From assembly GCA_016194725.1 (NCBI GenBank), contig JACQAW010000170.1, positions 1 through 34,395 on the forward strand: a stretch of DNA of 34,395 bases, read 5' to 3'. A program made the position numbers and the translations under genes. How positions within the stretch are numbered: position 1 is the stretch's first letter; every line of letters starts with the position of its first letter. This document shows positions 4,584 to 32,342 of this stretch, piece by piece. The stretch comes from Deltaproteobacteria bacterium. Its GTDB lineage: Bacteria; Bdellovibrionota; UBA1018; UBA923. The notes beneath the pieces were generated by a model that was not told the origin of the DNA, searched no databases, and saw only the letters and a list, made by a program, of their open reading frames with translations.

Positions 4584-4619
4584 GGGCTGATTTGTCTCTC
4601 GGATGAGCCGGAATGTCTC
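4584..4619. promoter_or_regulatory. Tandem enhancer boxes (GAGACA-N3-TGTCTC type)
   Basis: GGGCTG-ATT-TGTCTC 4584-4598 and GAGCCG-GAA-TGTCTC 4605-4619. Confidence 0.7.
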
Positions 4620-4661
4620 GAGGCAAGGCCTTGGCTCCCTCGGAACAACCGAAAATGGCGA

Positions 4662-4678
4662 TTGGCACCGAATTTGAA
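4662..4678 (+). promoter_or_regulatory. sigma54-like promoter for hsp20-like gene
   Basis: TTGGCAC-CGAAT-TTGAA (-12 GA variant), 42 nt downstream of the proximal box. Confidence 0.6.
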
Positions 4679-4748
4679 AAGACAAGGAATAAGCACAAGA
4701 CGTCTTAGATTGCCCGATGTGCGCAACTAAATTTCAAGGAGAGAGAAG

Positions 4749-5135
4749 ATGAATCACCAATCCCAACTGCAAGCTGTAAATTCCGTGGTCTTGTTTCCAA
4801 CCCCTGAGTCACGGCTTGAAAAAAGGCCGTCGAAACTTTCCAGAATGCTTGACTTGAATCCCGCGCCACCGCACGCGTTGATGGAAAGCGAGTCTGCCTA
4901 TTCGATCGTGTTTAACATGCTCGGAATTGAGCAAAAGGGCATCGGAATCGACATCGATACCGGCAAGCGCGAGGTCACGGTGTTGGCACGGCGTGAGCGT
5001 GAGTTTTCTCGCAACGGGTTTTTTTGGACCTTTGGCGTTCCGGGTGACGCCCTGTTAGTGGAAATGACAGCCCGCTTCAAGGCCGGTGTTCTCGAAATTG
5101 TCATTCCGAGATCGCCGCAGTTCATTGTCGCGTGA
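4749..5135 (+). CDS. Hsp20/alpha-crystallin-like protein (divergent)
   Basis: ESESAYSIVFNMLGI...ARFKAGVLEIVIPR pattern; SD AAGGAG. Confidence 0.75.
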   Translation: MNHQSQLQAVNSVVLFPTPESRLEKRPSKLSRMLDLNPAPPHALMESESAYSIVFNMLGIEQKGIGIDIDTGKREVTVLARREREFSRNGFFWTFGVPGDALLVEMTARFKAGVLEIVIPRSPQFIVA

Positions 5136-5157
5136 ATCCAAAATCCCAAACTCAGAA

Positions 5158-6306
5158 TTAAGCGGAGCTTCTGGTTTTACGTTGCTTCGGCAGCCGCACG
5201 ACAAAGCGTGTATTGGGCGCGCTGGAATCGATGACGAGGCTTCCACCATGATTCTCGATGATTGCCGTGGAAACGCTCAAGCCAAGCCCCGAGCCCTCTC
5301 CCATATCCTTGGTCGTGAAAAAGGGTTGCATGATTTTTTCGCGCAGTTCTTTGGGTATGCCGCGGCCGCTGTCGGAAACAGCGATTTCGACGTTTTCCGG
5401 GCCGTCGAGAACTTCAATTTTGATCCATCGCTCGTCCAGCTGAAGAATCGCGTCTTTGGCGTTGTTGATGAGATTCACGAACACCTGGCTGATCTGGGTT
5501 TCCTGGCACAAGATCTCGACACTGGCATCGATCCCCGTGGTGTGGGTGGTGATTCCGTGTTTTTTGAAGCTTTCCCAGGTAAAACCCAGCACGTCGTTGA
5601 TCATGCGTGCGACTGACGTATTATGGAACGGGTCGTTGGTCCCATCGCGGGAAAGCGCGCGCATGCCGCGAATAATCGCAGCCATGCGATCGCAAAGGCT
5701 TTTGACCGTATCAAAAGTTTTGAGAAGGTCCGTATCAGAACGCTTGCCTGCCTGTATCTGCATTTCCTGGAATTCCACGCGACCGCGAATGGTCGCAAGG
5801 GGGTTGCCAAGCTCGTGAGCAATGCCCGCGGCGAGCTCGCCCACGCTTGCCATTTTCTCGGAATGAATGAGAGTCGCGCGATGCCGTTCGGCCAGCTCCT
5901 GAACAAGCTTCTGCTCGGTGATGTCGGTGCGAATCGCGACGTATTTGAAGGGGCGGCCCTTGGCGGTCATAAAAGGGACGATCGTAGTGAAAACCCAGTA
6001 GAAGCTGCCGTCTTTTGTGCGGTTTTTGACTTCGCCTTTCCACGTCTTGCCCGAAGAGATGGTGGTCCAAAGATCGACGAAGAATTCCTTGGGATGGTGG
6101 CCTGAGTTGATGATTCGGTGGTTTTGGCCGATCAGCTCCTCGCGGGAAAACTTCGAGATCTCGCAGAACTTGTCGTTGAGGTAGGTAATGGTCCCTGTGG
6201 CGTCGGTGAACGCGACGATCGAAGAGTGGTCCAGCGCGTGGCGCAGATCATCGACCTCTTTTTCAGTGCGCTCCAACTGCTCTTCAACGCTCAACCGATC
6301 GCTCAT
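5158..6306 (-). CDS. Soluble PAS-domain sensor histidine kinase (HK1)
   Basis: NifL/Aer-type PAS (IGQNHRIINSGHHP...WKGEVKNRTKDG), H-box AHELGNPL, N box NLINNAKDA, G boxes DSGRGI and GSGLGL; no TM segments; start ATG 6306 with SD GAGG. Confidence 0.92.
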   Translation of the reverse strand: MSDRLSVEEQLERTEKEVDDLRHALDHSSIVAFTDATGTITYLNDKFCEISKFSREELIGQNHRIINSGHHPKEFFVDLWTTISSGKTWKGEVKNRTKDGSFYWVFTTIVPFMTAKGRPFKYVAIRTDITEQKLVQELAERHRATLIHSEKMASVGELAAGIAHELGNPLATIRGRVEFQEMQIQAGKRSDTDLLKTFDTVKSLCDRMAAIIRGMRALSRDGTNDPFHNTSVARMINDVLGFTWESFKKHGITTHTTGIDASVEILCQETQISQVFVNLINNAKDAILQLDERWIKIEVLDGPENVEIAVSDSGRGIPKELREKIMQPFFTTKDMGEGSGLGLSVSTAIIENHGGSLVIDSSAPNTRFVVRLPKQRKTRSSA

Positions 6307-6318
6307 GCCATCCTCGAA

Positions 6319-6373
6319 GTGACAACGTGTCTCAAAGAATGGCACTATCAGGCCAAATTGGCTCAATAGTCAA
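6319..6373 (-). promoter_or_regulatory. Putative sigma70 promoter of HK1 overlapped by two operator boxes
   Basis: Minus strand TTGACT (6373-6368), 18 nt, GATAGT (6349-6344); boxes GAGCCA-ATT-TGGCCT (6364-6350) and GAGACA-CGT-TGTCAC (6333-6319). Confidence 0.55.
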
Positions 6374-6397
6374 GTGAGTGCCAACAGCCAGTCGCCT

Positions 6398-7675
6398 TTA
6401 CGGTCCCTTGCAATAGAGATCGCGCCAGGAGCGCTGGAGCTGATCGCGATCGGCAGGATGTGCGATCGAAAGGAGCGCTTTGGCTCGCTGAGCCAGGTTC
6501 TTTCCATAGAGATCGGCGACTCCATATTCGGTAATCACGTAGTGAACGTGCGCTCGCGTCGTCACCACGCCCGCGCCGAGCCTCAAGGTTGGAACAATTC
6601 GTGAGCTGCCTGATTTTGTACGGCTGGGTAGGGCGATAATGGGTTTACCACCCGGCGAAAGCGAGGCACCCCGCATGAAATCCATTTGCCCGCCTGCGCC
6701 AGAGATAATTCTAGTTCCGATGGAATCCGCGCAAACCTGCCCGGTAAGGTCGATCTCGACGGCCGAGTTGATAGCGACCACCTTGGGGTTACGAGCGATA
6801 TTGGCCGCGTCGTTGACGTAACCAATGTCAAGTTGCACTACCGAGGGGTTGTCATGGATGAAGTCATAAAGTTTTTTGGAACCCATGACAAAACCCGAGA
6901 CGGTTTTGCCGGGATGTACCTTTTTCAAGGAGTTATCGACCGCGCCGGAGCGGAGCAGCTCCAGGGCTCCATCGGACCACATCTCGGAGTGGATTCCCAG
7001 ATGACGCCGGTCTTTGAGCACGCCGAGCACGGCGTCCGGAATATTTCCGATTCCCATTTGCAAAGTTGAGCCGTCGTCGATGAGGCTGGCAACATGATGT
7101 GCTATGGCCTTCTCGATATCACCGGGCAGGGTGGCGATTTCCTCGGGAAGTGGGTCGTCGACCTCAATGGCGTGGTCGATGCGACTGATATGGATGAAGC
7201 CATCGCCGTGAACGCGAGGCATTCGGGGATTGATCTGGGCAATGACGACCTTTGCGACGTCGATTGCGGCACGTGCGATGTCCACGCTCGTTCCCAGGGT
7301 GCAGTAGCCGTGTTGATCGGGGGGAGAAACGTGAATGAGGGCGACATCCAAGGGGAACCGGCCGGAGCGAAAGAGCTGCGGGATTTCTGATAAAAAGCAG
7401 GGAATATAATCGACCTGTCCCGGGTTCAATTTTTGGCGAAGGTTGGCGCCAATGAAAAAGGCTGAGACCTTGAAGCTGTCGGCCACGGCGGGATCGGCGT
7501 ATTTTGACGTTCCGATGGTATGCAGGTGAACCAGCTCCACGTTCTTCAGGCGACCGGCTTGGGCTGCCAGCCCGTCCAGGAGACGCGTGGGAGTCGCCGC
7601 CGCGCCTTGCGCGAACACGCGTTGGTTGGATTGAATCGCGGCGATGGCATCTTCGGCTCTTAAATGTGTTTTCAT
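6398..7675 (-). CDS. Acetyl-CoA hydrolase/transferase family (4-hydroxybutyrate CoA-transferase-like)
   Basis: TLQMGIGNIPDAV, HLGIHSEM, GAGGQMDFMRGA, VITEYGVADL motifs. Confidence 0.93.
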   Translation of the reverse strand: MKTHLRAEDAIAAIQSNQRVFAQGAAATPTRLLDGLAAQAGRLKNVELVHLHTIGTSKYADPAVADSFKVSAFFIGANLRQKLNPGQVDYIPCFLSEIPQLFRSGRFPLDVALIHVSPPDQHGYCTLGTSVDIARAAIDVAKVVIAQINPRMPRVHGDGFIHISRIDHAIEVDDPLPEEIATLPGDIEKAIAHHVASLIDDGSTLQMGIGNIPDAVLGVLKDRRHLGIHSEMWSDGALELLRSGAVDNSLKKVHPGKTVSGFVMGSKKLYDFIHDNPSVVQLDIGYVNDAANIARNPKVVAINSAVEIDLTGQVCADSIGTRIISGAGGQMDFMRGASLSPGGKPIIALPSRTKSGSSRIVPTLRLGAGVVTTRAHVHYVITEYGVADLYGKNLAQRAKALLSIAHPADRDQLQRSWRDLYCKGP

Positions 7676-7689
7676 CGAAAGCTTAAGTT

Positions 7690-7706
7690 TGCAAGTTTGG
7701 TGCGCA
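7690..7706 (-). promoter_or_regulatory. sigma54-like promoter for CoA hydrolase/transferase
   Basis: TGCGCAC-CAAAC-TTGCA (-24 CG variant), 39 nt from box 7746. Confidence 0.5.
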
Positions 7707-7745
7707 CGCCGCGGGGGCGGCAGAAACCGGGATAAGATTCAAAAT

Positions 7746-7781
7746 GAGACAAAGCCTGCACCAGACGTGACAAGTTGTCTC
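7746..7781. promoter_or_regulatory. Tandem enhancer boxes
   Basis: GAGACA-AAG-CCTGCA 7746-7760 (half-site) and GTGACA-AGT-TGTCTC 7767-7781. Confidence 0.7.
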
Positions 7782-7821
7782 ACGGGCATTGGAAAAAAAT
7801 CCGTAACTTCCATGACTTCTG

Positions 7822-7838
7822 CTGGCATCAAGTTTGCT
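7822..7838 (+). promoter_or_regulatory. sigma54 promoter
   Basis: CTGGCAT-CAAGT-TTGCT, 40 nt from box. Confidence 0.75.
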
Positions 7839-7850
7839 CATTAGACCGGT

Positions 7851-8339
7851 ATGAACAAACAATCACCAGCACAGTATTTGAACTTGGGTAGCAAGGTCAC
7901 ATTTTACGTCGTCGCGAGTCGTACGGAAGCCGTGTTCTTTTCGGTGGGCGACGAACAGGCGTTTCGATTCGTTGAACGGCTCTCGGACGAAAAGGGTGCT
8001 CTTCACGAGAGCGAACTCGTTTCGGACAGACCGGGCAGAGGGCTGTCAAGCGCAGGTAATGGCGTCGTTCGTCATGCCGTTGGGCATGGGGAGACGCACC
8101 GCGAACAGCTTGCAAAGAAGTTTGCAGCTCGAATTGCGGCGGCGCTGGATACGGCGCGCGCGCAAAAGCGCTTTACTGAAGTCGTACTTGCAGCCGAGCC
8201 ACGCTTTCTCGGCCTATTGAGGGAGGCGCTTGGATTGGAAATTCGTGCTTTGGTGAAACATGAAATTCCCCGTGAGTACGTCAAGTGTTCAGATGGCGAG
8301 GTTCGCGCCCGTATTCTGAAGGCGATCGAGAAAGAGTGA
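7851..8339 (+). CDS. Host-attachment family protein (bacterial aeRF1-like, baeRF)
   Basis: YVVASRTEAVFF, ELVSDRPGR, KFAARIAAALD, VLAAEPRFLGLLR. Confidence 0.85.
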   Translation: MNKQSPAQYLNLGSKVTFYVVASRTEAVFFSVGDEQAFRFVERLSDEKGALHESELVSDRPGRGLSSAGNGVVRHAVGHGETHREQLAKKFAARIAAALDTARAQKRFTEVVLAAEPRFLGLLREALGLEIRALVKHEIPREYVKCSDGEVRARILKAIEKE

Positions 8340-8358
8340 TTTTTCCGGGTGCCTGAGA

Positions 8359-8955
8359 TCATTTACCCAGGTAAACCACGCAGCGAATCGCGATGCGGTC
8401 GTCGGATCTGAGTCCGCCCATCATGGCAGTGAGCGGTACCAGGCCAAATGTGGTCTGGGCGATCTGGATATTGGCCTCGTAGGTATTCGCCCCTGTCTTC
8501 TTGAAGCGAATGTACTGCTCCACTGCCCGGCCGTGTAACGTGAGCAAGCCCTTGGCAAGAATCGAACTGCCATCGCGCTGCACGGAAACATCATTGACCT
8601 GATATCGAATCCACGGAAAGTCATCGCCTTGAAGCAACTGAGAGCGAATCTTCTGTTTGATCCGGCTCTTGTCCGCCTCTGAAATGTCTGGAGAAACGAC
8701 CTCAAGCCCGTTCACGTCGATTTCAGCCTCGATGCGAGCGCCTGCCGGGCAGGATTCCTCGGGCGTGACAGTGACGACCAGCTGCTGCGCGAGAATAACT
8801 GGCGCTTTGGCCAGTTTCGCCAAGGGGCCGCTGTTGCTGGGATGAAGCTCAATATAGACCTGTCGCTCCGAGAAGCAGAGTTTCCGTCGCGGCAGATTAA
8901 GCGCGGTAAAGAAGTCACTTTCCATTGTGTTCTCTTCCAGTCGAATCGGCTTCAT
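8359..8955 (-). CDS. YceI-like (lipid/polyisoprenoid-binding fold) protein
   Basis: LLQGDDFPWIRY, AKGLLTLHG, QTTFGLVPLTAMMGGLRSDD; start ATG 8955 after SD AAGGAG; no signal peptide. Confidence 0.72.
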   Translation of the reverse strand: MKPIRLEENTMESDFFTALNLPRRKLCFSERQVYIELHPSNSGPLAKLAKAPVILAQQLVVTVTPEESCPAGARIEAEIDVNGLEVVSPDISEADKSRIKQKIRSQLLQGDDFPWIRYQVNDVSVQRDGSSILAKGLLTLHGRAVEQYIRFKKTGANTYEANIQIAQTTFGLVPLTAMMGGLRSDDRIAIRCVVYLGK

Positions 8956-9009
8956 GCTTACTCCTTTGAGTGTTGAATCCACACGGGACATTCCGCTTGT
9001 CTGACTATT

Positions 9010-9026
9010 AGCAGGCTCCGTGCCAT
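9010..9026 (-). promoter_or_regulatory. sigma54 promoter for YceI-like gene
   Basis: ATGGCAC-GGAGC-CTGCT, 40 nt from box 9067. Confidence 0.72.
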
Positions 9027-9066
9027 GCCGGCCAGTGGCTGGAAATCGGGCTACGAGGTCCAATGT

Positions 9067-9103
9067 GGGACAGATTGGCTCAAGCCGTGCGCGCTGTTGT
9101 CTC
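9067..9103. promoter_or_regulatory. Tandem enhancer boxes
   Basis: GGGACA-GAT-TGGCTC 9067-9081 and GCGCGC-TGT-TGTCTC 9089-9103. Confidence 0.7.
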
Positions 9104-9142
9104 GTGCAACCCTGAAATCAAGTTATTTCAGTGGGATCTCCC

Positions 9143-9159
9143 CTGGAACGCCAGTTGCA
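9143..9159 (+). promoter_or_regulatory. sigma54 promoter
   Basis: CTGGAAC-GCCAG-TTGCA, 39 nt from box. Confidence 0.7.
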
Positions 9160-9203
9160 ATTTCATTGGCTGACGGCAAGGTCGTCAGCGACGAGGTGAA
9201 GCC

Positions 9204-9410
9204 ATGAGGGCATTTTGGCCGATTTTCATCATTCTTGGAGTGGCCAGCCGAATGCAAAGAGGACTAAACCCAAAGTTCTATCGGGCCGTTCTGGACGACC
9301 GCGCGCAGAATGTCGGTGCTTGTCAGGATTCCGATGATTCGGTGCTCGGAATCCACGATGGGAATGGCGTGAATCCTATTGGCAAGCATAGCTGCGCGCC
9401 CTGCCGTTGA
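9204..9410 (+). other. Small ORF or 5' remnant of an exported-protein gene
   Basis: Own sigma54 promoter, SD GAGGTG and signal-like start MRAFWPIFIILGVAS, but after about 20 codons it runs antisense through the CBS fragment. Confidence 0.4.
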
Positions 9411-9429
9411 TGGAGTAAAGAAGCGGCAT
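9264..9429 (-). pseudogene. CBS-domain gene with large internal deletion/frameshift
   Basis: ATG 9429 gives MPLLYSINGR; the other frame gives the last CBS half MLANRIHAIPIVDSEHRIIGILTSTDILRAVVQNGPIELWV; the first CBS domain is missing. Confidence 0.65.
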
Positions 9430-9441
9430 CTGACGAATTCC

Positions 9442-9951
9442 CTAAAAAATAAATCCATCCATGCGATGGCCCGCGTTCTCGAGAATTCCCTGAAGAGTCC
9501 AGCGTGCGGGCGTCTTGGGATCTCCCAAGAGGTCGATGAGAACTTTCATCAGATCGTCCGTCGTGACGATGCCTACGGTTGCACGGCCATTTGTTACCAA
9601 GAGGGCCGATACCTTTTCCTGGAGCAAGCGCTCGGCAACCAATCGGATGTCCGAATCCTGCTCGATGGTCAGAACCGGCCAGCCCATGTAGTCGCGAACT
9701 CTCGCTTCGGGATCGAATTCGATGCTTTCCGATGAAGCCGGGCTCGGTGGCTCATGCTTGATCTCGGAAATCATGGCCCGCTGTACGTCGCGGTCGGAAA
9801 GCATCCCTACGATTTCACCGGTATCGTCGCATACCGGAAGATGCCTGAGTTTCCGCTTTCGCATGCGTTTGCACGCGGTTTCCATATTCTCATTGAAGTT
9901 TATCGTGACCAGTTTCTTGCTCATGCTTTCGCGCGCCAGTTTCTTTGTCAT
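9442..9951 (-). CDS. CBS-domain pair protein
   Basis: MRKRKLRHLPVCD...VGMLSDRDV; VGIVTTDDLM; start ATG 9951 with SD GGAGAGG. Confidence 0.9.
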   Translation of the reverse strand: MTKKLARESMSKKLVTINFNENMETACKRMRKRKLRHLPVCDDTGEIVGMLSDRDVQRAMISEIKHEPPSPASSESIEFDPEARVRDYMGWPVLTIEQDSDIRLVAERLLQEKVSALLVTNGRATVGIVTTDDLMKVLIDLLGDPKTPARWTLQGILENAGHRMDGFIF

Positions 9952-9980
9952 GGATTGATCCTCTCCCTGCCTTACTGTTA

Positions 9981-9997
9981 CGCAAGATGGATGCCAT
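9981..9997 (-). promoter_or_regulatory. sigma54 promoter for CBS genes
   Basis: ATGGCAT-CCATC-TTGCG, 39 nt from box 10037. Confidence 0.75.
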
Positions 9998-10036
9998 TTA
10001 TTCAAGGCTTGACTTGCCAGCTATCCGACTCGATTT

Positions 10037-10073
10037 GGGCCGTTTCGTCTCAGCGGCAGCGACTTTGGGGCAC
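10037..10073. promoter_or_regulatory. Tandem enhancer boxes
   Basis: GGGCCG-TTT-CGTCTC 10037-10051 and degenerate GCGACT-TTG-GGGCAC 10059-10073. Confidence 0.55.
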
Positions 10074-10081
10074 GTTACCTC

Positions 10082-10852: not shown

Positions 10853-10877
10853 GATTCCCCCGTTTGCCTGGGCAATT

Positions 10878-10894
10878 AGCAATCGATGTGCCAA
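10878..10894 (-). promoter_or_regulatory. sigma54 promoter
   Basis: TTGGCAC-ATCGA-TTGCT (consensus), 42 nt from box 10937. Confidence 0.8.
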
Positions 10895-10936
10895 ACGCAG
10901 TTCCAGCGGCGGTTCGGGTTAGAGAAAATTCTCCAT

Positions 10937-10973
10937 GAGACGGAATAGCTCGTGCCGAGGTTCGATTTGTCCC
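10937..10973. promoter_or_regulatory. Tandem enhancer boxes
   Basis: GAGACG-GAA-TAGCTC 10937-10951 and GGTTCG-ATT-TGTCCC 10959-10973. Confidence 0.65.
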
Positions 10974-11014
10974 GAAAAGGCGGCGCGGTTCTCTTGCTGC
11001 GGCCGGGAAATTTC

Positions 11015-11031
11015 CTGGAATACCTATTGCA
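11015..11031 (+). promoter_or_regulatory. sigma54 promoter
   Basis: CTGGAAT-ACCTA-TTGCA, 41 nt from box. Confidence 0.7.
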
Positions 11032-11064
11032 CAGTGCTCCATCCAGGAAAGTGAGGAACTTAAA

Positions 11065-11541: not shown

Positions 11542-11549
11542 CACTGGGA

Positions 11550-12041: not shown

Positions 12042-12080
12042 GGCCAAAGTCATGCTCAAGCTAAATACCCGGCATCAATT

Positions 12081-12116
12081 GAGACAAAAAATCTCCACGA
12101 AGACTCAATTCTTCTC
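12081..12116. promoter_or_regulatory. Tandem enhancer boxes
   Basis: GAGACA-AAA-AATCTC 12081-12095 and GACTCA-ATT-CTTCTC 12102-12116. Confidence 0.6.
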
Positions 12117-12157
12117 ACCGGATACACGGAGTGAGCCGATCTGTAGGCAAAAGTTGC

Positions 12158-12174
12158 TTGGCACGTCGGCTGCA
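12158..12174 (+). promoter_or_regulatory. sigma54 promoter
   Basis: TTGGCAC-GTCGG-CTGCA, 41 nt from box. Confidence 0.75.
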
Positions 12175-21648: not shown

Positions 21649-21665
21649 TGCAGGCTTTGTGCCGG
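21649..21665 (-). promoter_or_regulatory. sigma54 promoter of the cco operon
   Basis: CCGGCAC-AAAGC-CTGCA, 40 nt from box 21706. Confidence 0.7.
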
Positions 21666-21677
21666 GCGGAAATAAAC

Positions 21678-21753
21678 GGGAAAAACCGTCCCAAAACTCC
21701 AAGGCGAGACGTAATGGCTCGAGCCGGTGTCCCACGGTGAGCCAAGTTGTCTC
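21678..21753. promoter_or_regulatory. Cluster of enhancer boxes
   Basis: GAGACG-TAA-TGGCTC 21706-21720 and GAGCCA-AGT-TGTCTC 21739-21753; weaker GGGAAA-AAC-CGTCCC 21678-21692. Confidence 0.75.
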
Positions 21754-21782
21754 AAAAGCGGGCTTAAAGGGCTGGAACCTGC

Positions 21783-21799
21783 TTGGCACGAGAATTTCA
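21783..21799 (+). promoter_or_regulatory. sigma54-like promoter for HK2
   Basis: TTGGCAC-GAGAA-TTTCA (-12 TC variant), 29 nt from box. Confidence 0.55.
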
Positions 21800-21811
21800 T
21801 GGATATAGGAT

Positions 21812-22939
21812 GTGCTTACAATGGAATACATGCTTGCCAACACGGACCCTCAAAACGTCTTTTTTCGGTGCGTGGAGGACTGTAGCGAGGCGATCATGGT
21901 TACGGATACGAAGGGAATTCTTCTCTACGTCAACCCGGCCTGGTGTCAGATTTATGGCTTCACCAAGAAAGAAGCCGTGGGACAGACGCCTAAAATCCTG
22001 CACTCCGGTTATCAGCCTTCCGAATTCTACCGCCAGATGTGGCAAACGATCCTGAATCCAAAACTGGGGAGCTGGAAGGGCGATATCGTCAACAAGTCCA
22101 AGAACGGCGCGCTTACCCCGGTGCTCTTGACTATCACCCCGGTTCGAGATCCCAACGGACAGATTGTCGGGCACATGGGCATTGCCCTGGATATGTCGGC
22201 TCAAAAGCAGCTGGAGTCCAAGGTTCTGCAACAGGACAGGCTTGCTTCGATCGGAGTTTTATCGAGCGGCCTGGCTCATGAAGTCGGAACTCCTCTGGGA
22301 GTCGTGCGTGGACGAGCTGAATTTCTGATGATGCAGCCCGAGGTCGCCAAAAGCCCGGTTTTGGGTATTGGTCTACAGACGATTGTCACGCAAATCGACC
22401 GTATTTCCAGGCTCATCAGCTCGCTGCTGCGATTTAGCCGCGCGACGGATGACGTGCATAACCAGGATATCGAATTTTTGGCTGTCATCGACGAGGTCGA
22501 GAACCTCATTGGGCAGAATCTCAAAGCGAGCTCGATTGAGCTGAAACTTGAAATTCCAAAGGGACTCAAAATTCACGCCGATTTCAACCGCCTGCAACAA
22601 GTCTTTTTGAATCTCATGGTAAACGCGGTTCACGCCATTCAAAAAGCTCAAAAAGACGGGTCAGGGCGTGAGCATGCCATTGTGATTCATGCCGAACGTA
22701 AAGGCGAGGCGTCAGACTCCAGTGTCGTGATTACGGTGAAAGACAGCGGTTGCGGCATTGCGCCAGGCAATCTGCGAAAGATTTTCCAGCCTTTCTTCAC
22801 GACCAAAGACGTGGGCGAGGGCACGGGGCTGGGACTTGCGATCGTTTCAAAGCTCGTGCATGAAATGAGGGGCGAAATCATGGTGGAAAGCGTGCTGGGC
22901 GAGGGCGCGAATTTCACGCTTTTTTTAAGGTCAAGATGA
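21812..22939 (+). CDS. Soluble PAS-domain sensor histidine kinase (HK2)
   Basis: NifL-type PAS (VNPAWCQIYGF...GQTPKILHSG...WKGDIVN), AHEVGTPL, NLMVNAVHA, DSGCGI, GTGLGL; start 21812 or 21821. Confidence 0.92.
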   Translation: MLTMEYMLANTDPQNVFFRCVEDCSEAIMVTDTKGILLYVNPAWCQIYGFTKKEAVGQTPKILHSGYQPSEFYRQMWQTILNPKLGSWKGDIVNKSKNGALTPVLLTITPVRDPNGQIVGHMGIALDMSAQKQLESKVLQQDRLASIGVLSSGLAHEVGTPLGVVRGRAEFLMMQPEVAKSPVLGIGLQTIVTQIDRISRLISSLLRFSRATDDVHNQDIEFLAVIDEVENLIGQNLKASSIELKLEIPKGLKIHADFNRLQQVFLNLMVNAVHAIQKAQKDGSGREHAIVIHAERKGEASDSSVVITVKDSGCGIAPGNLRKIFQPFFTTKDVGEGTGLGLAIVSKLVHEMRGEIMVESVLGEGANFTLFLRSR

Positions 22940-23559
22940 GCATCAAACCCTGTTCACTTATCGTTCTGACTGGCGGGCCCGGCGCGGGAAAAACCGCAAC
23001 CCTCGAAATCGTGCGCAAGAGGTTTCTCGAGCATATCTCGATCGTACCCGAGGCCGCCAGCATTATTTATGGCGGGGGGTTCTGGAGGCGCGACGGCCTG
23101 GCGATGAAAAAGGCCGCGCAAAGGGCCATTTATCACGTTCAGCGGGAGCTGGAGCACGCGATTGTCGAGGACGGGAACACGACGGTTGCTCTGTGTGACC
23201 GCGGCACGCTGGACGGGTTGGCCTATTGGCCAGAGGCGGCCGAGTCATTTTGGCAGGAGCTGGGCATTACGCGCGAAGCCGAGCTGAAGCGTTACGCGGC
23301 GGTCATTCACCTGCGCACTCCGAACGCCGAACACGGTTACAATCATCAGAATCCCATTCGCACCGAGAATGCGCGCGAGGCCTCAGTGATCGATGAGCGC
23401 ATCGTGAAAGCCTGGGAAGGGCACCCCAACCGCATCTTCATCGAGAGCACCGAAAATTTTCTGGAAAAGGTCAGGCTTGCCCTTGAAGTGATCAAGAAAC
23501 AACTCATCGTTATTCAGAATCTTCCGGAAAATGCTCCGGCTCCTGCTCGTCGCCCGTGA
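22936..23559 (+). CDS. AAA_28/NadR-like P-loop kinase/ATPase
   Basis: LTGGPGAGKT, VPEAA, CDRGTLDGLAYW; ATGA-coupled to HK2. Confidence 0.85.
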   Translation: MSIKPCSLIVLTGGPGAGKTATLEIVRKRFLEHISIVPEAASIIYGGGFWRRDGLAMKKAAQRAIYHVQRELEHAIVEDGNTTVALCDRGTLDGLAYWPEAAESFWQELGITREAELKRYAAVIHLRTPNAEHGYNHQNPIRTENAREASVIDERIVKAWEGHPNRIFIESTENFLEKVRLALEVIKKQLIVIQNLPENAPAPARRP

Positions 23560-24834
23560 CGAAGCCGAATTCGCGTTCTTTCCGATAAAGGGTTCGGCGA
23601 TTGATGCCGAGTATCTGAGCGGCCTTGTCCTTTCGACCGCCGGTTTTTTCCAAAACGAGCTGCATATATCTTTTTTCCAGCGATTCGATCGTGGGAAAAT
23701 CGGAAACCGCGGTTCCAAAGAATTGATCTGCGGTAGCCACCTCGGTTGAAGGAATATTTTCCTCGTCGATCTGCGTTCCCGAGCAGAGAACGACGGCGCG
23801 CTCGATGACGTTCTCGAGCTCTCGCACGTTACCTTCCCACTTCGCGCTCACGAGCTTCGTGGTCGCGGCTTTCGTGAAGCTGGTGACTTTGGAGTTATTC
23901 GCGGCCGAATATTTGCGCAAAAAGTGCTCGGCCAGGATCGGGATATCCTCTTTGCGATGCCGAAGGGGCGGAATCACGATGGGAATGACGCTCAGGCGAT
24001 AGTAGAGGTCTTCGCGAAAGATACCTTGTTTGATCGCAGCTTTGAGATCTTTGTGCGTCGCTGCAACGATTCGAACGTCGATATCTTTGGTGATGTTTTC
24101 GCCTACGGGACGAATCTTGCGTTCCTGGATCACGCGCAAGAGCTTCGACTGCAGCGATGGTTGCATATCGCCGATTTCATCGAGAAACAATGTGCCGCCC
24201 TCGGCTTCCTCGAAGAGTCCTTTCTTTCGTTGGACAGCGCCCGTAAATGAGCCTTTAGCGTGGCCGAAGAGCTCGGACTCCAGAAGATTCTCCGGAATGG
24301 CCGTGCAGTTGATCGCGACAAACGGCTTTTCGCGGCGGGGGCCGCTGTTGTGGATGGCACGGGCCACCATTTCTTTTCCTGTTCCGCTTTCACCGGTAAT
24401 GAGGACATTCGCATTGGCTTGCGAAACCCGGCCTACGAGATCAAAAACTTCTTCGTGACGCTCATTTCAGCAAGCTTGAAGGGTTTGACGATATAGTCGT
24501 AGGTGCCGCGGCGCATGGCCTCAATCGCGGTTTCAATACTTCCGAATGCCGTGATGAGAATGACTGGAATTTTAGGATACTGCTGCTTTAACTTTGCCGC
24601 GAAATCCATGCCGTCAAGTTGTGGCATCCTGATATCCGAGATGATGAGATCAACCGCTTCATGTGGAATCTCGGCTTTGCCGCCTTCAACTTCGGAGCCC
24701 AGAGCGCGAAGCGCATCGGTGGCCAGCGAAAAGGTCGTGGTTCTATAGCCTTCTGCCGTGAAAAAATCGTTGAGCAGGGATCTCATCTCCCAGTCATCGT
24801 CCACAATTACGATATGGCCTTTTTGTTCCTTCAC
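23510..24834 (-). pseudogene. NtrC-family sigma54-dependent response regulator (REC-AAA+-Fis HTH), broken by a deletion/frameshift near 24455
   Basis: REC from GTG 24834 (SD AAGGAG) stops at 24433; EEVFDLV...GESGTGKE, GSFTGA, FLDEIG, GNVREL and the HTH are in another frame; the REC-AAA linker is missing. Confidence 0.88.
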
Positions 24835-24846: not shown

Positions 24847-24881
24847 GGGACAATATGTCTCGCAGCGGGACATTTTTACCA
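24847..24881. promoter_or_regulatory. Tandem boxes in the leader of the response regulator gene
   Basis: GGGACA-ATA-TGTCTC 24847-24861 and GGGACA-TTT-TTACCA 24867-24881, between promoter and SD. Confidence 0.7.
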
Positions 24882-24929: not shown

Positions 24930-24946
24930 AGCAGGGAACGTGCCAA
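24930..24946 (-). promoter_or_regulatory. sigma54 promoter upstream of the response regulator
   Basis: TTGGCAC-GTTCC-CTGCT. Confidence 0.7.
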
Positions 24947-25978: not shown

Positions 25979-25995
25979 TACAAGTTGCGTGCCGA
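25979..25995 (-). promoter_or_regulatory. sigma54-like promoter for ldhA
   Basis: TCGGCAC-GCAAC-TTGTA (-12 GT variant), 31 nt from box 26027. Confidence 0.55.
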
Positions 25996-26026: not shown

Positions 26027-26062
26027 GAGACAATTTGAGTGCCGGGCGGGCTTTTTTGTCTC
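26027..26062. promoter_or_regulatory. Tandem enhancer boxes
   Basis: GAGACA-ATT-TGAGTG 26027-26041 and GGGCTT-TTT-TGTCTC 26048-26062. Confidence 0.68.
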
Positions 26063-26103: not shown

Positions 26104-26120
26104 CTGGCCCGCTGGTTGCA
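26104..26120 (+). promoter_or_regulatory. sigma54 promoter
   Basis: CTGGCCC-GCTGG-TTGCA, 41 nt from box. Confidence 0.72.
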
Positions 26121-29739: not shown

Positions 29740-29756
29740 TGCATTCCAGATGCCAA
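29740..29756 (-). promoter_or_regulatory. sigma54 promoter for pfkB
   Basis: TTGGCAT-CTGGA-ATGCA, 29 nt from box 29786. Confidence 0.68.
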
Positions 29757-29785
29757 GATACCGGGGCTTTGAAGTTCGAGGGCAC

Positions 29786-29822
29786 GGGACACCAAGTGTC
29801 GTTTCGTGAGCAAATTTGTCTC
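29786..29822. promoter_or_regulatory. Tandem enhancer boxes
   Basis: GGGACA-CCA-AGTGTC 29786-29800 (half-site) and GAGCAA-ATT-TGTCTC 29808-29822. Confidence 0.68.
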
Positions 29823-29862
29823 AAGCCACCGTCGACCCGCGCGATTTCCGCCAGTAAATGCC

Positions 29863-29879
29863 TTGGCACGCTCGCTGCA
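29863..29879 (+). promoter_or_regulatory. sigma54 promoter
   Basis: TTGGCAC-GCTCG-CTGCA, 40 nt from box. Confidence 0.75.
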
Positions 29880-30461: not shown

Positions 30462-30489
30462 GCGGGCATTGCCCTTCAAAGGAGATCAC

Positions 30490-30903
30490 ATGAAAGCAAT
30501 GCCAAGAATTCAAAAAGTCATGACCGCGATGCCGCACACCATTGGAAGCGACATTCCGATCAAAAAGGCGATGGAAATGATGCGGGAGTTCCGCATTCGC
30601 CATCTGCCGGTTCAGAGGGCCGGGCAGCTCATCGGTGTCTTGAGCGATCGAGACATCAAACTTGCCCGCTCATTTCAAGGGCCAGGCGAGCTGACCGTCG
30701 ATGACGTAATGACCCCCGATCCCTACGTCGTTGCTCCAGACGCCTCGCTGGACGAAGTCGCGTTCAATATGGCCGAACACAAATACGGCTGCGCTATCGT
30801 CCGGCAGTCCAACGGAAAGGTCGTTGGTATTTTCACGGACAACGACGCCCTCAGAAGTTTAGGTGAGACGCTCCGCAGCCACTACAAGACCGTGGCGGCT
30901 TGA
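30490..30903 (+). CDS. CBS-domain pair protein
   Basis: IRHLPV...GVLSDRDI; VDDVMT; VVGIFTDNDAL; SD AAGGAG. Confidence 0.9.
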   Translation: MKAMPRIQKVMTAMPHTIGSDIPIKKAMEMMREFRIRHLPVQRAGQLIGVLSDRDIKLARSFQGPGELTVDDVMTPDPYVVAPDASLDEVAFNMAEHKYGCAIVRQSNGKVVGIFTDNDALRSLGETLRSHYKTVAA

Positions 30904-30990
30904 CCAGCGCAAAGAGAACCGCAGGGCGCACCGCCACGATGGTTATCGTGGAGGACGTCTTGCGGTTCAGTTTTGATGGAAGGCCAGGAT

Positions 30991-31440
30991 ATGAACACTT
31001 TAGCGGCAAAGACAGGTGATCAAGCAGGACAAAAAGAGACAAAGACCGTCAATTTGTCCCATGGGTTGACCAAGGGGCGGCTTCTGGTGATCGACGACGA
31101 TGTTGGGATGCGGTCTCTTTTGAACGATGTGTTGTGCACCTCGGGCTACACCGTGACGAGCTTTTCGGACGCGATCGGAGCGTTGAAAATCGTTACGGCC
31201 AACGATCAGAATATTGACGCCATAATTTGCGATCTGAATATGCCCAGAATCAGCGGATTTGATTTCCTGGACATGCTGCAAAGGATGAAATCGAAGATAC
31301 CTCTGATACTCATTACCGCATTTGGAACGAAGAAGACCGAGCAGGAAGCGCAGAAAAAAGGCGCATTTGGCTACCTCTCAAAACCGTTCCAGCTTTCGGA
31401 AATCAGCGAGCTGATTCAAAAGGCAGTGAATCCGCTCTGA
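30991..31440 (+). CDS. Single-domain response regulator (receiver)
   Basis: LVIDDD, ICDLNMP, ITAFG, KPF; no output domain. Confidence 0.9.
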   Translation: MNTLAAKTGDQAGQKETKTVNLSHGLTKGRLLVIDDDVGMRSLLNDVLCTSGYTVTSFSDAIGALKIVTANDQNIDAIICDLNMPRISGFDFLDMLQRMKSKIPLILITAFGTKKTEQEAQKKGAFGYLSKPFQLSEISELIQKAVNPL

Positions 31441-31842
31441 CTACAGGCGACTGGCCTGAGACGGGATATAGGGCACGAATCTCAGGATCTCGAAATTCTT
31501 GACGCTGATTTCGAAGCGGAGCTCGGCTCCGACATACGACCCGGCATGGGGGGACAGCTCCCCCTGGAACTTGGGAAGCGGGTCCTGGAGGTTTACGGCC
31601 TGCAGCTCGATGGTCTGGCCCGTGCCGGAATCCCGAAACAGGGTAATAGCCATGCTCCTGGGCGCGAGCTTCTTGGTGTTGAGCGTATAGACCTCGACGT
31701 GGTTCGCAGCGGGATCGATTTTGACCTCAAACTGGTGCGTGTTGTTCTGAACGACTTTTCCGCCGTGGGGACCCGGCTTTTCTTCAGCGTGCCCAAGTTG
31801 AGAGGCAATCAATAAGAGCGCGGCGGCAACTTGAATTTTCAT
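31441..31842 (-). CDS. Exported hypothetical protein with GPHGG motif
   Basis: Signal peptide followed by EEKPGPHGG; start overlaps the stop of the upstream gene. Confidence 0.7.
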   Translation of the reverse strand: MKIQVAAALLLIASQLGHAEEKPGPHGGKVVQNNTHQFEVKIDPAANHVEVYTLNTKKLAPRSMAITLFRDSGTGQTIELQAVNLQDPLPKFQGELSPHAGSYVGAELRFEISVKNFEILRFVPYIPSQASRL

Positions 31843-32210
31843 AAAGTGCGGTTTCCCTTCCGGATGGTTTTAGTGTGTTCGGCTTCGCTGAGGTCGCTGT
31901 GCAGTTTCTTGCCATCTGTCAGGGCGAGCTTGCCGTCTTTTTCAAATATGAGGCGGATGGCTTGCATATCCGTCTCGAGGGGCAGCTCATAGACCATCAA
32001 TGTTCCCGAGCTTACTGCAACCAGTTTTGTCCGAACGTCTTCTTTTTTGAAGTATTCAGCCGTGAAGGTGTCGCGAATCCAGGTATTGCCCCGCACTTTG
32101 GCCACTCCTTGTTCGTAGGCATCGACTACGCCAAGAAAAAACCGTGAGTGGTCATTCTCAAAGAGTCGCCGATGGACGATCAGAACCTTCGAACCTTCTT
32201 CCAGGATCAT
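31839..32210 (-). CDS. Conserved-looking hypothetical protein
   Basis: 123 aa directly downstream of a sigma54 promoter; GSKVLIVHRRLFENDHSRFFLGVV. Confidence 0.7.
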   Translation of the reverse strand: MILEEGSKVLIVHRRLFENDHSRFFLGVVDAYEQGVAKVRGNTWIRDTFTAEYFKKEDVRTKLVAVSSGTLMVYELPLETDMQAIRLIFEKDGKLALTDGKKLHSDLSEAEHTKTIRKGNRTL

Positions 32211-32238
32211 GATGTTGCCCCTTCTTCAGGCTCAGAAT

Positions 32239-32255
32239 TGCAACCACTGGGCCAA
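32239..32255 (-). promoter_or_regulatory. sigma54 promoter
   Basis: TTGGCCC-AGTGG-TTGCA, 41 nt from box 32297. Confidence 0.72.
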
Positions 32256-32296
32256 GCTGAAATGAGGGTGGGGTTTGGGGTGGACCAGTTGATCAC

Positions 32297-32342
32297 GAGC
32301 AAAAAAGACTCGTTTCCGCTGTGGGGCGAGACATTGTGTCTC
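32297..32342. promoter_or_regulatory. Enhancer boxes including the perfect palindrome
   Basis: GAGCAA-AAA-AGACTC 32297-32311 and GAGACA-TTG-TGTCTC 32328-32342. Confidence 0.75.

What the first reader, a model, noticed from the sequence alone, without database searches (positions are those of the whole stretch)
4584..32342. Candidate bEBP operator GAGACA-N3-TGTCTC, mostly in tandem pairs 20-22 bp apart
Seen: a 15-bp palindrome, perfect at 32328 and near-perfect at 6319, 7767, 21739 and 24847, occurs in 12 intergenic regions. Start-to-start offsets of pairs: 21 (4584/4605, 7746/7767, 12081/12102, 26027/26048), 22 (9067/9089, 10037/10059, 10937/10959, 29786/29808), 20 (24847/24867) and 31-33 (6319/6350, 32297/32328, 21706/21739), i.e. 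two or three helical turns. Some partners are only half-sites. Known: NtrC-type activators bind tandem palindromic UAS through Fis-type HTHs. Inference: this is the site of the 23510-24834 regulator.
Basis: partly seen in the sequence, partly recalled or inferred. Interest (0 to 1): 0.85.

Follow-up and report, generated by a model that had tools for sequence, protein, structure and literature searches.

The report
Enhancer sites of a sigma-54 low-oxygen regulon
The repeated 15-base palindrome is very probably the docking site of one NtrC-type activator that switches on about 18 sigma-54 promoters for a high-affinity oxidase and stress-survival genes in an uncultured Bdellovibrionota bacterium, a new example of a known kind of switch.

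Summary
GAGACA-N3-TGTCTC (up to 2 mismatches) occurs 11 times in the window against 1.1 expected. Ten of the 11 lie in the 9.3% that is non-coding. The 4-Mb genome holds 45 such matches, 11 of them on this contig.

Sigma-54 -24/-12 elements stand beside the sites. The proximal site centre lies 47-51 bp upstream of the -24 element at 13 promoters, and many sites are shared by two divergent promoters.

Across the order, the palindrome recurs beside orthologues of the contig's REC-AAA+-HTH_8 regulator, at their own 5' ends and upstream of ccoI/cbb3 and CBS/USP genes. It was found upstream of ccoI only in genomes that have the orthologue: 11 of 19 against 0 of 10.

The regulator gene is broken in this assembly, but public contigs do not support that junction.

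The closest known system is Myxococcus NmpR, which has the same type of regulon but another motif, another sensor and no orthology in my tree. This is a new member of a known kind. Binding itself is untested.

The parts
4584..4619 (.). Operator pair (4584-4598, 4605-4619), upstream of the Hsp20-like gene 4749-5135
   Evidence: partner score 11.9, null fraction 0.0006. Site centres lie 51 and 72 bp upstream of the TGGCAC at 4663.
4663..4678 (+). Sigma-54-like promoter TGGCACCGAATTTGAA (-12 is TTGA, not GC: weaker call)
6319..6364 (.). Operator pair (6319-6333, 6350-6364) between the acetyl-CoA hydrolase/transferase gene and PAS histidine kinase 1. It lies downstream of a TGGCAC-N5-TTGAC element (6383-6368, minus) and overlaps a sigma-70-like TTGACT-18-GATAGT (6373-6344, minus).
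7746..7781 (.). Operator (7767-7781 strong; 7746 is a GAGACA half-site only), shared by divergent promoters
7690..7706 (-). Non-canonical -24/-12-like element TGCGCAC-CAAAC-TTGCA before the acetyl-CoA hydrolase/transferase gene (start 7675)
   Evidence: The -24 GG is absent, so the call is uncertain.
7823..7838 (+). Sigma-54 promoter TGGCATCAAGTTTGCT before the Host_attach/baeRF12 gene (7851-8339)
9067..9103 (.). Operator pair (9067-9081 strong, 9089-9103 right half only) between divergent promoters
9010..9025 (-). Sigma-54 promoter TGGCACGGAGCCTGCT before the YceI-like gene (start about 8955)
9144..9159 (+). Sigma-54-like promoter TGGAACGCCAGTTGCA. No convincing gene lies downstream, and the transcript would be antisense to a CBS fragment.
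10037..10073 (.). Operator (10037-10051; the partner at 10059 is weak) upstream of CBS gene 1
9981..9996 (-). Sigma-54 promoter TGGCATCCATCTTGCG before the CBS gene (start about 9951)
10937..10973 (.). Operator pair between divergent promoters
10878..10893 (-). Sigma-54 promoter TGGCACATCGATTGCT (11 of 11 consensus positions) before the unknown gene 10852-10082
11016..11031 (+). Sigma-54 promoter TGGAATACCTATTGCA before unknown genes 11065-11541 and 11550-12041
12081..12116 (.). Operator pair upstream of a secreted unknown protein (12220-12954)
12159..12174 (+). Sigma-54 promoter TGGCACGTCGGCTGCA
21678..21753 (.). Three sites (21678 weak, 21706, 21739) between ccoI (cbb3 operon, minus strand) and PAS histidine kinase 2 (plus strand)
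   Evidence: Conserved upstream of ccoI in other genomes.
21649..21664 (-). Sigma-54 promoter CGGCACAAAGCCTGCA before ccoI-ccoNO-ccoP-ccoG (21634 down to about 14102)
21773..21801 (+). Sigma-54-like element(s) before PAS-HK2: TGGAACCTGCTTGGCA at 21773, or TGGCAC-N5-TTTCA from 21786
   Evidence: The register is ambiguous.
24847..24881 (.). Operator (24847-24861 strong, 24867-24881 half-site) in the 5' leader of the regulator gene, with site centres 91 and 71 bp downstream of the first base of its sigma-54 promoter
   Evidence: The same arrangement occurs in 11 of 28 upstream regions examined, the window included.
24930..24945 (-). Sigma-54 promoter TGGCACGTTCCCTGCT of the regulator gene
24433..24834 (-). 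Regulator, receiver (REC) part. Its frame ends in a short out-of-frame tail.
23510..24466 (-). Regulator, sigma-54 AAA+ domain (GSFTGA loop), lid and HTH_8. The junction at 24453|24454 lacks about 36 linker residues.
26027..26062 (.). Operator pair between the 2-hydroxyacid dehydrogenase gene (minus) and the beta-CASP metallo-hydrolase gene (plus)
25979..25994 (-). Sigma-54-like promoter CGGCACGCAACTTGTA (-12 GT instead of GC) before the 2-hydroxyacid dehydrogenase gene
   Evidence: Coordinates re-read by hand; I entered this promoter four bases too far upstream.
26105..26120 (+). Sigma-54 promoter TGGCCCGCTGGTTGCA before the beta-CASP gene (start 26133)
29786..29822 (.). Operator pair (29808 strong, 29786 weak) between PfkB kinase (minus) and the Hsp20 gene (plus)
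29740..29755 (-). Sigma-54 promoter TGGCATCTGGAATGCA before PfkB
29864..29879 (+). Sigma-54 promoter TGGCACGCTCGCTGCA before Hsp20-CBS(-REC)
32297..32342 (.). Operator pair (32328 perfect) between divergent promoters
32239..32254 (-). Sigma-54 promoter TGGCCCAGTGGTTGCA before unknown genes 32210-31441
32383..32398 (+). Sigma-54 promoter TGGCATGAGCGCTGCA before the secreted TPR-like unknown gene (32426-33583) and the USP gene
5158..6306 (-). PAS histidine kinase 1, a candidate sensor
21821..22939 (+). PAS histidine kinase 2, a candidate cognate sensor (adjacent to the regulator in many genomes)

Best explanation
The palindrome G(A/G)G(A/C)CA-N3-TG(T/G)C(T/C)C is the upstream activating sequence of a sigma-54 regulon. 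Dimers of the contig's NtrC-type response regulator (REC, sigma-54 AAA+ with a GSFTGA loop, Fis-type HTH) bind one full site and usually a second full or half site. The second site lies two helical turns away (20-22 bp), more rarely three (31-33 bp). After phosphorylation by a flavin-type PAS histidine kinase that reports redox state or low oxygen, the bound dimers assemble into the active ring. The ring reaches the sigma-54 holoenzyme parked about 50 bp away and opens the promoter. In five regions one site pair is shared by two divergent promoters, so each site is proximal for one promoter and distal for the other. The genes switched on are the high-affinity cbb3 oxidase with its copper ATPase and assembly genes, two Hsp20, two or three CBS proteins, two USP proteins, a PfkB kinase, a 2-hydroxyacid dehydrogenase, an acetyl-CoA hydrolase/transferase, a beta-CASP hydrolase, a baeRF-like protein and several secreted unknowns. 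This is a low-oxygen or energy-stress survival programme. The regulator also binds its own leader, downstream of its own sigma-54 promoter. What is shown: the sites, their enrichment, the promoter elements, the geometry, and the conservation and co-occurrence with the regulator. What is inferred: binding by this protein, the signal, activation, and the sign of autoregulation.
For: Enrichment and location of sites. Pairing at two or three turns. The genome has rpoN. Sigma-54-like elements scoring at least 10 of 11: 10 in the window against 1.5 expected from the rest of the genome. The proximal site centre lies 47-51 bp upstream of the first base of the -24 element at 13 promoters and 38-40 bp at two more, one turn less. 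Phase test at period 10.5: R=0.90, P about 1e-5, n=14. Sigma-70-like promoters are scarce there: 2 against 4.7 expected. Regulator domains. It is the only DNA-binding protein found on the contig. Hits of at least 64% identity occur in about 65 of 115 other genomes of the order. Twenty loci around such orthologues carry 18 sites with PWM at least 16 in 385 kb (1.61 per 34 kb), against 2 in 1.25 Mb (0.06 per 34 kb) around paralogues in other phyla. Those sites lie before orthologous targets: ccoI, CBS/USP divergent pairs and the regulator itself. A palindrome within about 250 bp upstream of ccoI (or of CBS-ccoI) was found in 11 of 19 informative loci from genomes with the orthologue and 0 of 10 from genomes without. 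Fisher P=0.0035, not corrected for relatedness. The PAS domains of both kinases match 3ewk_A 'Sensor protein' best (E 2.7e-46 and 3.8e-26), and also the Aer and NifL PAS domains. That 3ewk is the FAD-binding MmoS sensor is my recollection. A working precedent is M. xanthus NmpR, an NtrC-type regulator that activates CBS, USP and P-type ATPase/cbb3 genes under hypoxia from tandem 15-bp palindromes (abstract and sections 6, 13, 16, 17 and 22 read).
Against: No binding or expression data exist. No RNA run holds the stretch. The regulator gene is broken in this assembly; if that is real, the island would be silent in this strain. Whole-genome counts of the strict pattern (up to 1 mismatch) do not separate genomes with the orthologue (2-6 among the five; 5, 10 and 2 for G113, G115 and G110) from genomes without it (1-7). 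They also barely exceed a reversed-pattern control, so outside this lineage the regulon is small or the sites are weak. Eight of 19 orthologue-bearing genomes show no site before ccoI, one of them having the regulator directly upstream of ccoI. Genus g9 genomes carry the orthologue but have the CBS-ccoI arrangement without the motif. The PWM was trained on the window's own sites, so window counts made with it are circular. Some promoter calls are non-canonical (4663, 6383, 7706, 25994). The phase signal in other genomes is weak (R=0.34, P=0.05, n=25). A sister paralogue on contig C59 has almost the same recognition helix.
Confidence: 0.75

Rival explanations
1. The sites are sigma-54 enhancers, but they are bound by another bEBP of the genome, alone or together with the contig's regulator. 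The obvious candidate is the sister paralogue on contig C59.
For: The genome has at least 21 bEBP genes at 72.6% completeness. The C59 protein is 59% identical. It is the starred sister of the orthologue clade (SH-aLRT 98). Its recognition helix reads INRKTLYRKEREYG against INRRTLYRKEREYG. The window's own gene looks broken.
Against: Contig C59 (4261 bp) has no site with PWM of 11 or more and no sigma-54-like element scoring 10 or more. By contrast, 11 of 28 upstream regions of the window-type regulator carry the palindrome in a fixed place. Presence of the motif at ccoI follows the window-type orthologue. I did not test how the C59 type is distributed.
Confidence: 0.12
2. The palindrome is the operator of a non-bEBP factor, such as a repressor or an architectural protein, which merely sits next to sigma-54 promoters. 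The true enhancers would be elsewhere.
For: At the regulator's own promoter and at PAS-HK1 the sites lie downstream of the promoter element, as repressor operators do. One site overlaps a sigma-70-like promoter.
Against: No other DNA-binding protein was found on the contig or in the conserved neighbourhood. Sigma-54 promoters need an enhancer, and no other repeated motif ranks with it in the intergenic regions: the top hexamers are the palindrome's own halves and a poly-A run, followed by TGGCAC. The fixed distance of 47-51 bp on the upstream side is typical of activator sites.
Confidence: 0.06
3. The palindrome is a genomic repeat or a chance pattern without regulatory function.
For: Single matches with 2 mismatches occur about once per 34 kb in unrelated DNA (39 in 1.33 Mb).
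Against: 0 of 100 shuffles reach the count. Ten of 11 hits are intergenic. Eleven of 45 genome-wide hits lie on 0.87% of the genome. The motif is conserved before orthologous genes in other genomes. There is no Rfam match.
Confidence: 0.01

Closest known systems
NmpR of the NmpRSTU system, Myxococcus xanthus (PMC11841059; abstract and sections 6, 13, 16, 17, 22 read, plus passages on NmpT)
   Same: It is an NtrC-type response regulator acting at sigma-54 promoters from tandem 15-bp palindromes. Its regulon holds a CBS protein, a USP, a P-type ATPase with the cbb3 oxidase, and the system's own genes. It is induced by hypoxia. In Myxococcota MAGs the NmpR-like gene also sits beside a cbb3 cluster.
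   Different: The motif is GCGCA-N5-TGCGC, with 14-15 bp between sites, not GAGACA-N3-TGTCTC with 5-7 bp. The NmpR box is not enriched here: 0 perfect and 3 with one mismatch, 2 of them in genes. The sensor is a protoglobin kinase with a hybrid kinase and a double-receiver protein; protoglobin was found in 0 of 10 genomes of this family, and here the kinases are PAS type. Sequence identity is 48%. A quick tree places the two groups apart, with the NmpR-likes grouping with another bEBP of this genome on C50. The recognition helices differ. The paper does not use the word 'autoregulat' or the phrase 'downstream of the', and I saw no downstream operator described.
Classical NtrC/DctD/ZraR-type bEBP enhancers (textbook knowledge, recalled)
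   Same: Two dimer sites on one face of the helix upstream of a -24/-12 promoter, and a regulator built of REC, AAA+ and HTH_8.
   Different: The sites are closer than I recall for the textbook cases: centres at about -75 and -96, against about -100 to -150 recalled for glnAp2. One pair often serves two divergent promoters. No NCBIfam equivalog reaches its cut-off: AtoC 471 against 714 bits, NtrC 446 against 559, ZraR 413 against 760.
DosR/DevR dormancy regulon of mycobacteria (gene content recalled from memory; mentioned in PMC11841059 section 22)
   Same: A hypoxia-type gene set of USPs, an Hsp20, a CBS protein, PfkB and a P-type ATPase.
   Different: The DosR regulator is a NarL-type response regulator acting at sigma-70-type promoters. 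Here the regulator is a bEBP and the promoters are sigma-54 type. The resemblance is by gene content only.

Membership tests
bEBP (NtrC-type) enhancer and regulon | Regulator with a sigma-54 interaction AAA+ domain carrying the GAFTGA-type loop and a C-terminal HTH | tested here: met
   Sigma54_activat E 2.8e-59, AAA_lid_14 and HTH_8. GSFTGA is present in the translation. The REC domain is in the upstream piece. The full-length orthologues are 476-500 aa.
bEBP (NtrC-type) enhancer and regulon | The organism has sigma-54 | tested here: met
   Sigma54_DBD match of 217 bits in a 509-aa open frame on contig C231.
bEBP (NtrC-type) enhancer and regulon | -24 GG / -12 GC promoter downstream of the sites, facing the regulated gene | tested here: met
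   Fourteen canonical elements (score of at least 9 of 11 with GG and GC) sit next to the sites, and four are non-canonical. Enrichment is 10 against 1.5 expected at a score of 10 or more.
bEBP (NtrC-type) enhancer and regulon | Dyad-symmetric sites, two or more, on one helical face | tested here: met
bEBP (NtrC-type) enhancer and regulon | The regulator binds the sites and transcription depends on it and on sigma-54 | not testable with these tools
   This needs EMSA or DAP-seq, reporters and knockouts.
NmpR orthologue group | Sequence orthology to NmpR | tested here: not met
   NmpR-like genes, identified by their protoglobin-kinase context and GCGCA boxes, are 48% identical. They fall outside the starred clade of 15 rows that holds the window's protein (quick IQ-TREE, 48 rows; the separating branches have 88-92 support and are not starred). 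M. xanthus NmpR itself could not be fetched.
NmpR orthologue group | Recognition sequence GCGCA-N5-TGCGC | tested here: not met
NmpR orthologue group | Protoglobin sensor kinase NmpU upstream in the pathway | tested here: not met
   PF11563 was found in 0 of 10 genomes of the family, six of them at least 90% complete; G000 itself is 72.6% complete.
NmpR orthologue group | Regulon holding CBS, USP and P-type ATPase plus cbb3 oxidase genes | tested here: met
Named NCBIfam bEBP equivalogs (AtoC, NtrC, ZraR, GlrR, PEP-CTERM PrsR, NtrX and others) | Score above the curated cut-off | tested here: not met
   All 25 families listed for the full-length orthologue are below their cut-offs.

The most novel reading that the evidence does not exclude
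One bEBP runs a compact island that is, as far as I can see, driven only by sigma-54. About 18 promoters lie in 28 kb, fed by shared two-way enhancers set at a fixed helical phase about 50 bp from each -24 element. The same bEBP controls its own sigma-54 promoter from an operator conserved about +45/+65 inside the leader, in at least four families of the order. No other bEBP site is visible near that promoter and the geometry mirrors the upstream sites, so the regulator may activate from downstream, as a natural downstream enhancer. Alternatively it may act as activator elsewhere and as a roadblock on itself. The regulon would be an independent invention, in Bdellovibrionota, of the NmpR/DosR type of hypoxia programme.
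Probability: 0.3. Interest if true: 0.6.

Novelty: new member of a known kind. Interest (0 to 1): 0.45.

Why it matters
This gives a testable regulator, operator and regulon assignment for an uncultured lineage of Bdellovibrionota, where almost nothing is known about gene control. It predicts how these bacteria cope with low oxygen in groundwater. It links about ten proteins of unknown function to that response. It also offers a second, apparently non-orthologous case beside Myxococcus NmpR of a sigma-54 activator controlling cbb3 oxidase, CBS and USP genes. The very regular two-way enhancer geometry and the conserved operator downstream of the regulator's own sigma-54 promoter would make good material for studying how close, and from which side, a bEBP can act.

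Tried and rejected
1. Literature search by the motif letters returned only primer and oligonucleotide noise.

2. Searches for Bdellovibrio or Bdellovibrionota together with sigma-54, bEBP, hypoxia or cbb3 listed no paper on this regulator, judged from titles and abstracts only. PMC12316311 does not mention Bdellovibrio; passages read by term search.

4. Whole-genome counts of the strict pattern as a test of co-occurrence were uninformative: 1-10 matches per genome in both groups, close to the reversed-pattern control. I replaced this test with site presence at one defined target, ccoI.

5. The Myxococcota loci that the search for related loci returned (L005, L022, L036, L052, L076) have no homologues of the window's other genes nearby, and the GCGCA box is common in their GC-rich DNA. 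They therefore say nothing about NmpR. I found NmpR-like loci through the protoglobin kinase instead.

6. Same-genus genomes G111 and G112 seemed to lack the orthologue. G111's contig C413 ends close to where the regulator gene would begin, and it carries the palindrome there. This looks like fragmentation, not absence.

7. NCBIfam and relaxed Pfam scans of the unknown regulon genes gave only a YceI-like hit above its cut-off and weak TPR and Metal_resist hits.

8. Rfam: no family matched.

9. No RNA runs hold the stretch, so expression could not be examined.

10. The supplements of the NmpR paper were not opened. They may list further NmpR sites.

Full report
WHAT THE WINDOW IS. The window is a whole 34,395-bp contig (C141) of a 3.97-Mb, 491-contig genome estimated at 72.6% complete. 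The nearest public loci are titled Bdellovibrionota, Oligoflexia or Bdellovibrionales MAGs. The only runs that hold the stretch are groundwater metagenomes from one study.

Pfam gives a coherent gene set:
- a cbb3 oxidase cluster (P-type ATPase ccoI, fused ccoNO, ccoP, ccoG, a DsbD_2 protein);
- two Hsp20 proteins, two USP proteins and two CBS proteins;
- PfkB, a D-2-hydroxyacid dehydrogenase and an acetyl-CoA hydrolase/transferase;
- a beta-CASP hydrolase and a Host_attach/baeRF12 protein;
- a YceI-like protein, a PLD, an AAA_28 protein and a lone receiver;
- two PAS histidine kinases and one NtrC-type regulator;
- about ten proteins without a family.

THE OBSERVATION. It is confirmed. The strict pattern with up to two mismatches occurs 11 times against 1.1 expected, and none of 100 shuffles reached 11. 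Ten of the 11 lie in the 9.3% of the window that is non-coding on my gene map.

In the whole genome there are 45 such matches. Eleven are on this contig, which is 0.87% of the genome. Five of the 6 matches with at most one mismatch are also here. So this is a local regulatory word and not a genome-wide repeat.

A blind hexamer comparison of non-coding against coding sequence ranks GAGACA/TGTCTC first. GTGCCA/TGGCAC comes fifth, after two hexamers that overlap the palindrome and a poly-A run.

Seven of 10 partners exceed the 99th percentile of a genome-wide null. One is marginal. Two are only half-sites.

WHAT STANDS BESIDE THE SITES. Each region has one or two -24/-12 elements of the sigma-54 type pointing away from the sites. 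Elements matching at least 10 of 11 consensus positions number 10 in the window, against 1.5 expected from the rest of the genome. The genome encodes sigma-54. Sigma-70-like promoters are, if anything, under-represented in 4500-12400 (2 against 4.7 expected).

The geometry is strikingly regular. The centre of the proximal site lies 47-51 bp upstream of the first base of the -24 element at 13 promoters. At PfkB and the 2-hydroxyacid dehydrogenase gene it lies 38-40 bp upstream, one turn less (the 2-hydroxyacid dehydrogenase value is corrected by hand). A Rayleigh test at period 10.5 bp gives R=0.90 and P about 1e-5 for 14 site-promoter distances. These are not fully independent, because paired sites are two turns apart.

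In five regions (9010-9159, 10878-11031, 21649-21801, 29740-29879, 32239-32398) one site pair lies midway between two divergent promoters, whose -24 elements are 109-129 bp apart. Each site is then proximal for one promoter and distal for the other. Four promoter calls are non-canonical (4663, 6383, 7706, 25994) and should be treated as provisional.

WHICH PROTEIN BINDS. The contig's only predicted DNA-binding protein is the bEBP at 23510-24834, with REC, Sigma54_activat (GSFTGA loop), AAA lid and HTH_8. Hits of at least 64% identity occur in about 65 of the 115 other genomes of the order, as open frames mostly of 470-550 aa.

Their neighbourhoods repeat the window's gene set. Of 20 loci of up to 20 kb, a PAS kinase is present in 19, a USP in 11, a CBS2 homologue in 10 and the ccoI-ccoNO cluster in 9.

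In those loci, sites scoring at least 16 on the window-derived PWM occur 1.61 times per 34 kb, against 0.06 around paralogous bEBPs of other phyla. They lie before the orthologous targets: ccoI, divergent CBS/USP pairs often flanked by two sigma-54 elements, and the regulator itself.

As an independent test I grouped genomes by presence of the orthologue and then looked upstream of ccoI next to ccoNO. A palindrome with PWM at least 12 within about 250 bp of ccoI, or of a CBS-ccoI pair, was present in 11 of 19 informative loci with the orthologue and in 0 of 10 without. Three truncated loci were dropped. Fisher P is 0.0035, and relatives are not independent. Six of the nine earlier loci that hold ccoI also show it.

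RESULTS AGAINST THE READING.
- Strict-pattern counts over whole genomes do not differ between the two groups and barely exceed a reversed control. Outside this lineage the regulon is therefore small. The 12-region island seems to be an expansion particular to this lineage.
- Eight of 19 orthologue-bearing genomes lack a site at ccoI, notably genus g9.
- A sister paralogue (contig C59, 59% identical) has an almost identical recognition helix. However, its 4.3-kb contig has no site and no sigma-54 element.

THE REGULATOR GENE IS BROKEN IN THIS ASSEMBLY. REC and AAA+ are in different frames. About 36 residues are missing relative to the orthologues: the end of REC helix 5, the linker, and the first residues of the AAA+ domain.

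The break is at 24453|24454. In the two runs that hold the stretch, Logan contigs from both sides stop exactly there and none bridges it. The contigs on the REC side (coordinates above 24454) carry 29 further letters that do not fit the window (table 8). The junction is thus unsupported by an independent assembly of what may be the same reads. I read it as a probable MAG assembly fault or a minor variant. This is unproven, because contigs drop rare variants.

THE REGULATOR'S OWN PROMOTER. A good sigma-54 element (24945-24930) directly follows the stop codon of the upstream gene. The palindromes lie downstream of it, in the leader, with centres 71 and 91 bp from the first base of the -24 element, roughly +45 and +65.

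The same layout recurs in 11 of 28 upstream regions examined, from at least four families. It consists of a TGGCAC-N5-CTGCT element followed by one or two palindromes starting 62-65 and/or 82-85 bp later (53 bp in one locus). In most of the others the regulator has no promoter of its own.

A sigma-54 promoter cannot fire without an activator, and I see no other site there. The downstream distance nearly mirrors the upstream one. I therefore lean (about 55:45) to positive autoregulation from a downstream enhancer rather than a roadblock. This is inference only.

PAS kinase 1 shows a related picture. Its sites lie after a TGGCAC-N5-TTGAC element and overlap a sigma-70-like promoter.

THE LIKELY SIGNAL. 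The PAS domains of both kinases match PDB chain 3ewk_A best (E 2.7e-46 and 3.8e-26). They also match the PAS domains of the Aer aerotaxis receptor and of NifL. By my recollection these are flavin-binding redox sensors.

Together with the gene set this points to low oxygen or a reduced respiratory chain. The set comprises a high-affinity oxidase and its copper supply, nucleotide-sensing CBS and USP proteins, small heat-shock proteins and fermentative-type enzymes.

COMPARISON WITH WHAT IS KNOWN. The closest described system is NmpRSTU of Myxococcus xanthus (PMC11841059; abstract and sections 6, 13, 16, 17 and 22 read). NmpR is an NtrC-like regulator that binds tandem GCGCA-N5-TGCGC sites. Under hypoxia it activates a CBS gene heading its own operon, a USP, a P-type ATPase with cbb3 oxidase, hemN/hemerythrin, its kinase operon and pilR.

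The logic and the regulon match, but membership fails on four points:
- The NmpR box is not used here.
- The protoglobin sensor is absent from 10 of 10 genomes of the family.
- NmpR-like genes that I located in Myxococcota by their protoglobin-kinase context and GCGCA boxes are only 48% identical.
- Those genes fall outside the window's clade in a quick tree, grouping instead with another bEBP of this genome (the separating branches have 88-92 support and are not starred; M. xanthus NmpR itself could not be fetched).

No NCBIfam equivalog reaches its cut-off. A survey of sigma-54 regulons notes USP and CBS genes behind sigma-54 promoters in Planctomycetia and does not mention Bdellovibrio (PMC12316311, passages only).

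My searches listed no paper on this motif or regulator. RegPrecise and CollecTF could not be consulted.

VERDICT. This is a bEBP enhancer, most probably that of the contig's own regulator, driving a sigma-54 low-oxygen/stress regulon. It is a new member of a known kind, with an uncharacterised regulator lineage and a new recognition sequence. Two features are worth experimental attention: the tightly phased enhancers shared by two promoters, and the conserved operator downstream of the regulator's own sigma-54 promoter.

Noticed in passing
window 24453-24454: The regulator gene has a frame-breaking gap of about 36 codons. Public contigs from two runs stop exactly here and none bridges it, so the contig is probably mis-assembled at this point.
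   Followed up: partly
window 9264-9458 (minus) next to 9442-10005 (minus): A 64-aa frame with a CBS-like ending (…HAIPIVDSEHRIIGILTSTDILRAV…) directly follows the CBS gene in another frame. This is either a frameshift or a second assembly fault. The sigma-54-like promoter at 9144 (plus) would transcribe antisense to it.
   Followed up: no
window 13026-13307 and 13220-14098 (minus): The PLD-like gene appears split into two overlapping frames, each with a PLDc_2 match. This is another possible frameshift.
   Followed up: no
window 7675, 7851, 21634, 25965, 26133, 29726: Six start codons lie only 13-18 nt after the end of the -12 element. Transcripts would therefore be leaderless or nearly so, unless the true starts are further downstream.
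   Followed up: no
window 1651-1676 and 1711-1726: A different inverted repeat (GCCTCGGT-N10-ACCGAGGC) is centred about 47 bp upstream of another sigma-54-like element (TGGCGCGCCGCTTGCT), before an unknown gene. The spacing matches the palindrome regions, so it may be the enhancer of a different bEBP.
   Followed up: no
G000 contig C117 8312-9142; also C89:5358, C384:1237, C42:471: More sites of the same motif lie outside the window. C117:8366 sits between divergent sigma-54-like elements before a CBS gene homologous to the window's CBS1. The regulon therefore extends beyond this contig.
   Followed up: partly
loci L121 and L125 (genus g9), about 50 bp into the regulator's coding sequence: In genus g9 a near-perfect palindrome (GAGACA[G/A]CTCGTCTC) lies inside the start of the regulator's receiver-domain coding sequence instead of in the leader. 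It could be dual use or coincidence. The two genomes are close kin.
   Followed up: no
window 16804-19059 (minus): ccoN and ccoO are fused into one 751-aa frame (COX1 plus FixO). Matches of about 660-670 of its residues, in open frames of 708-795 aa, occur in 60 of 116 genomes of the order.
   Followed up: no
window 11065-11541 and 11550-12041; 12220-12954; 32426-33583: Several unknown, partly secreted proteins recur next to the regulator in other genomes. They are two paralogous proteins of about 160 aa, a 244-aa protein and a 385-aa TPR-like protein. They are likely conserved regulon members without a known function.
   Followed up: partly
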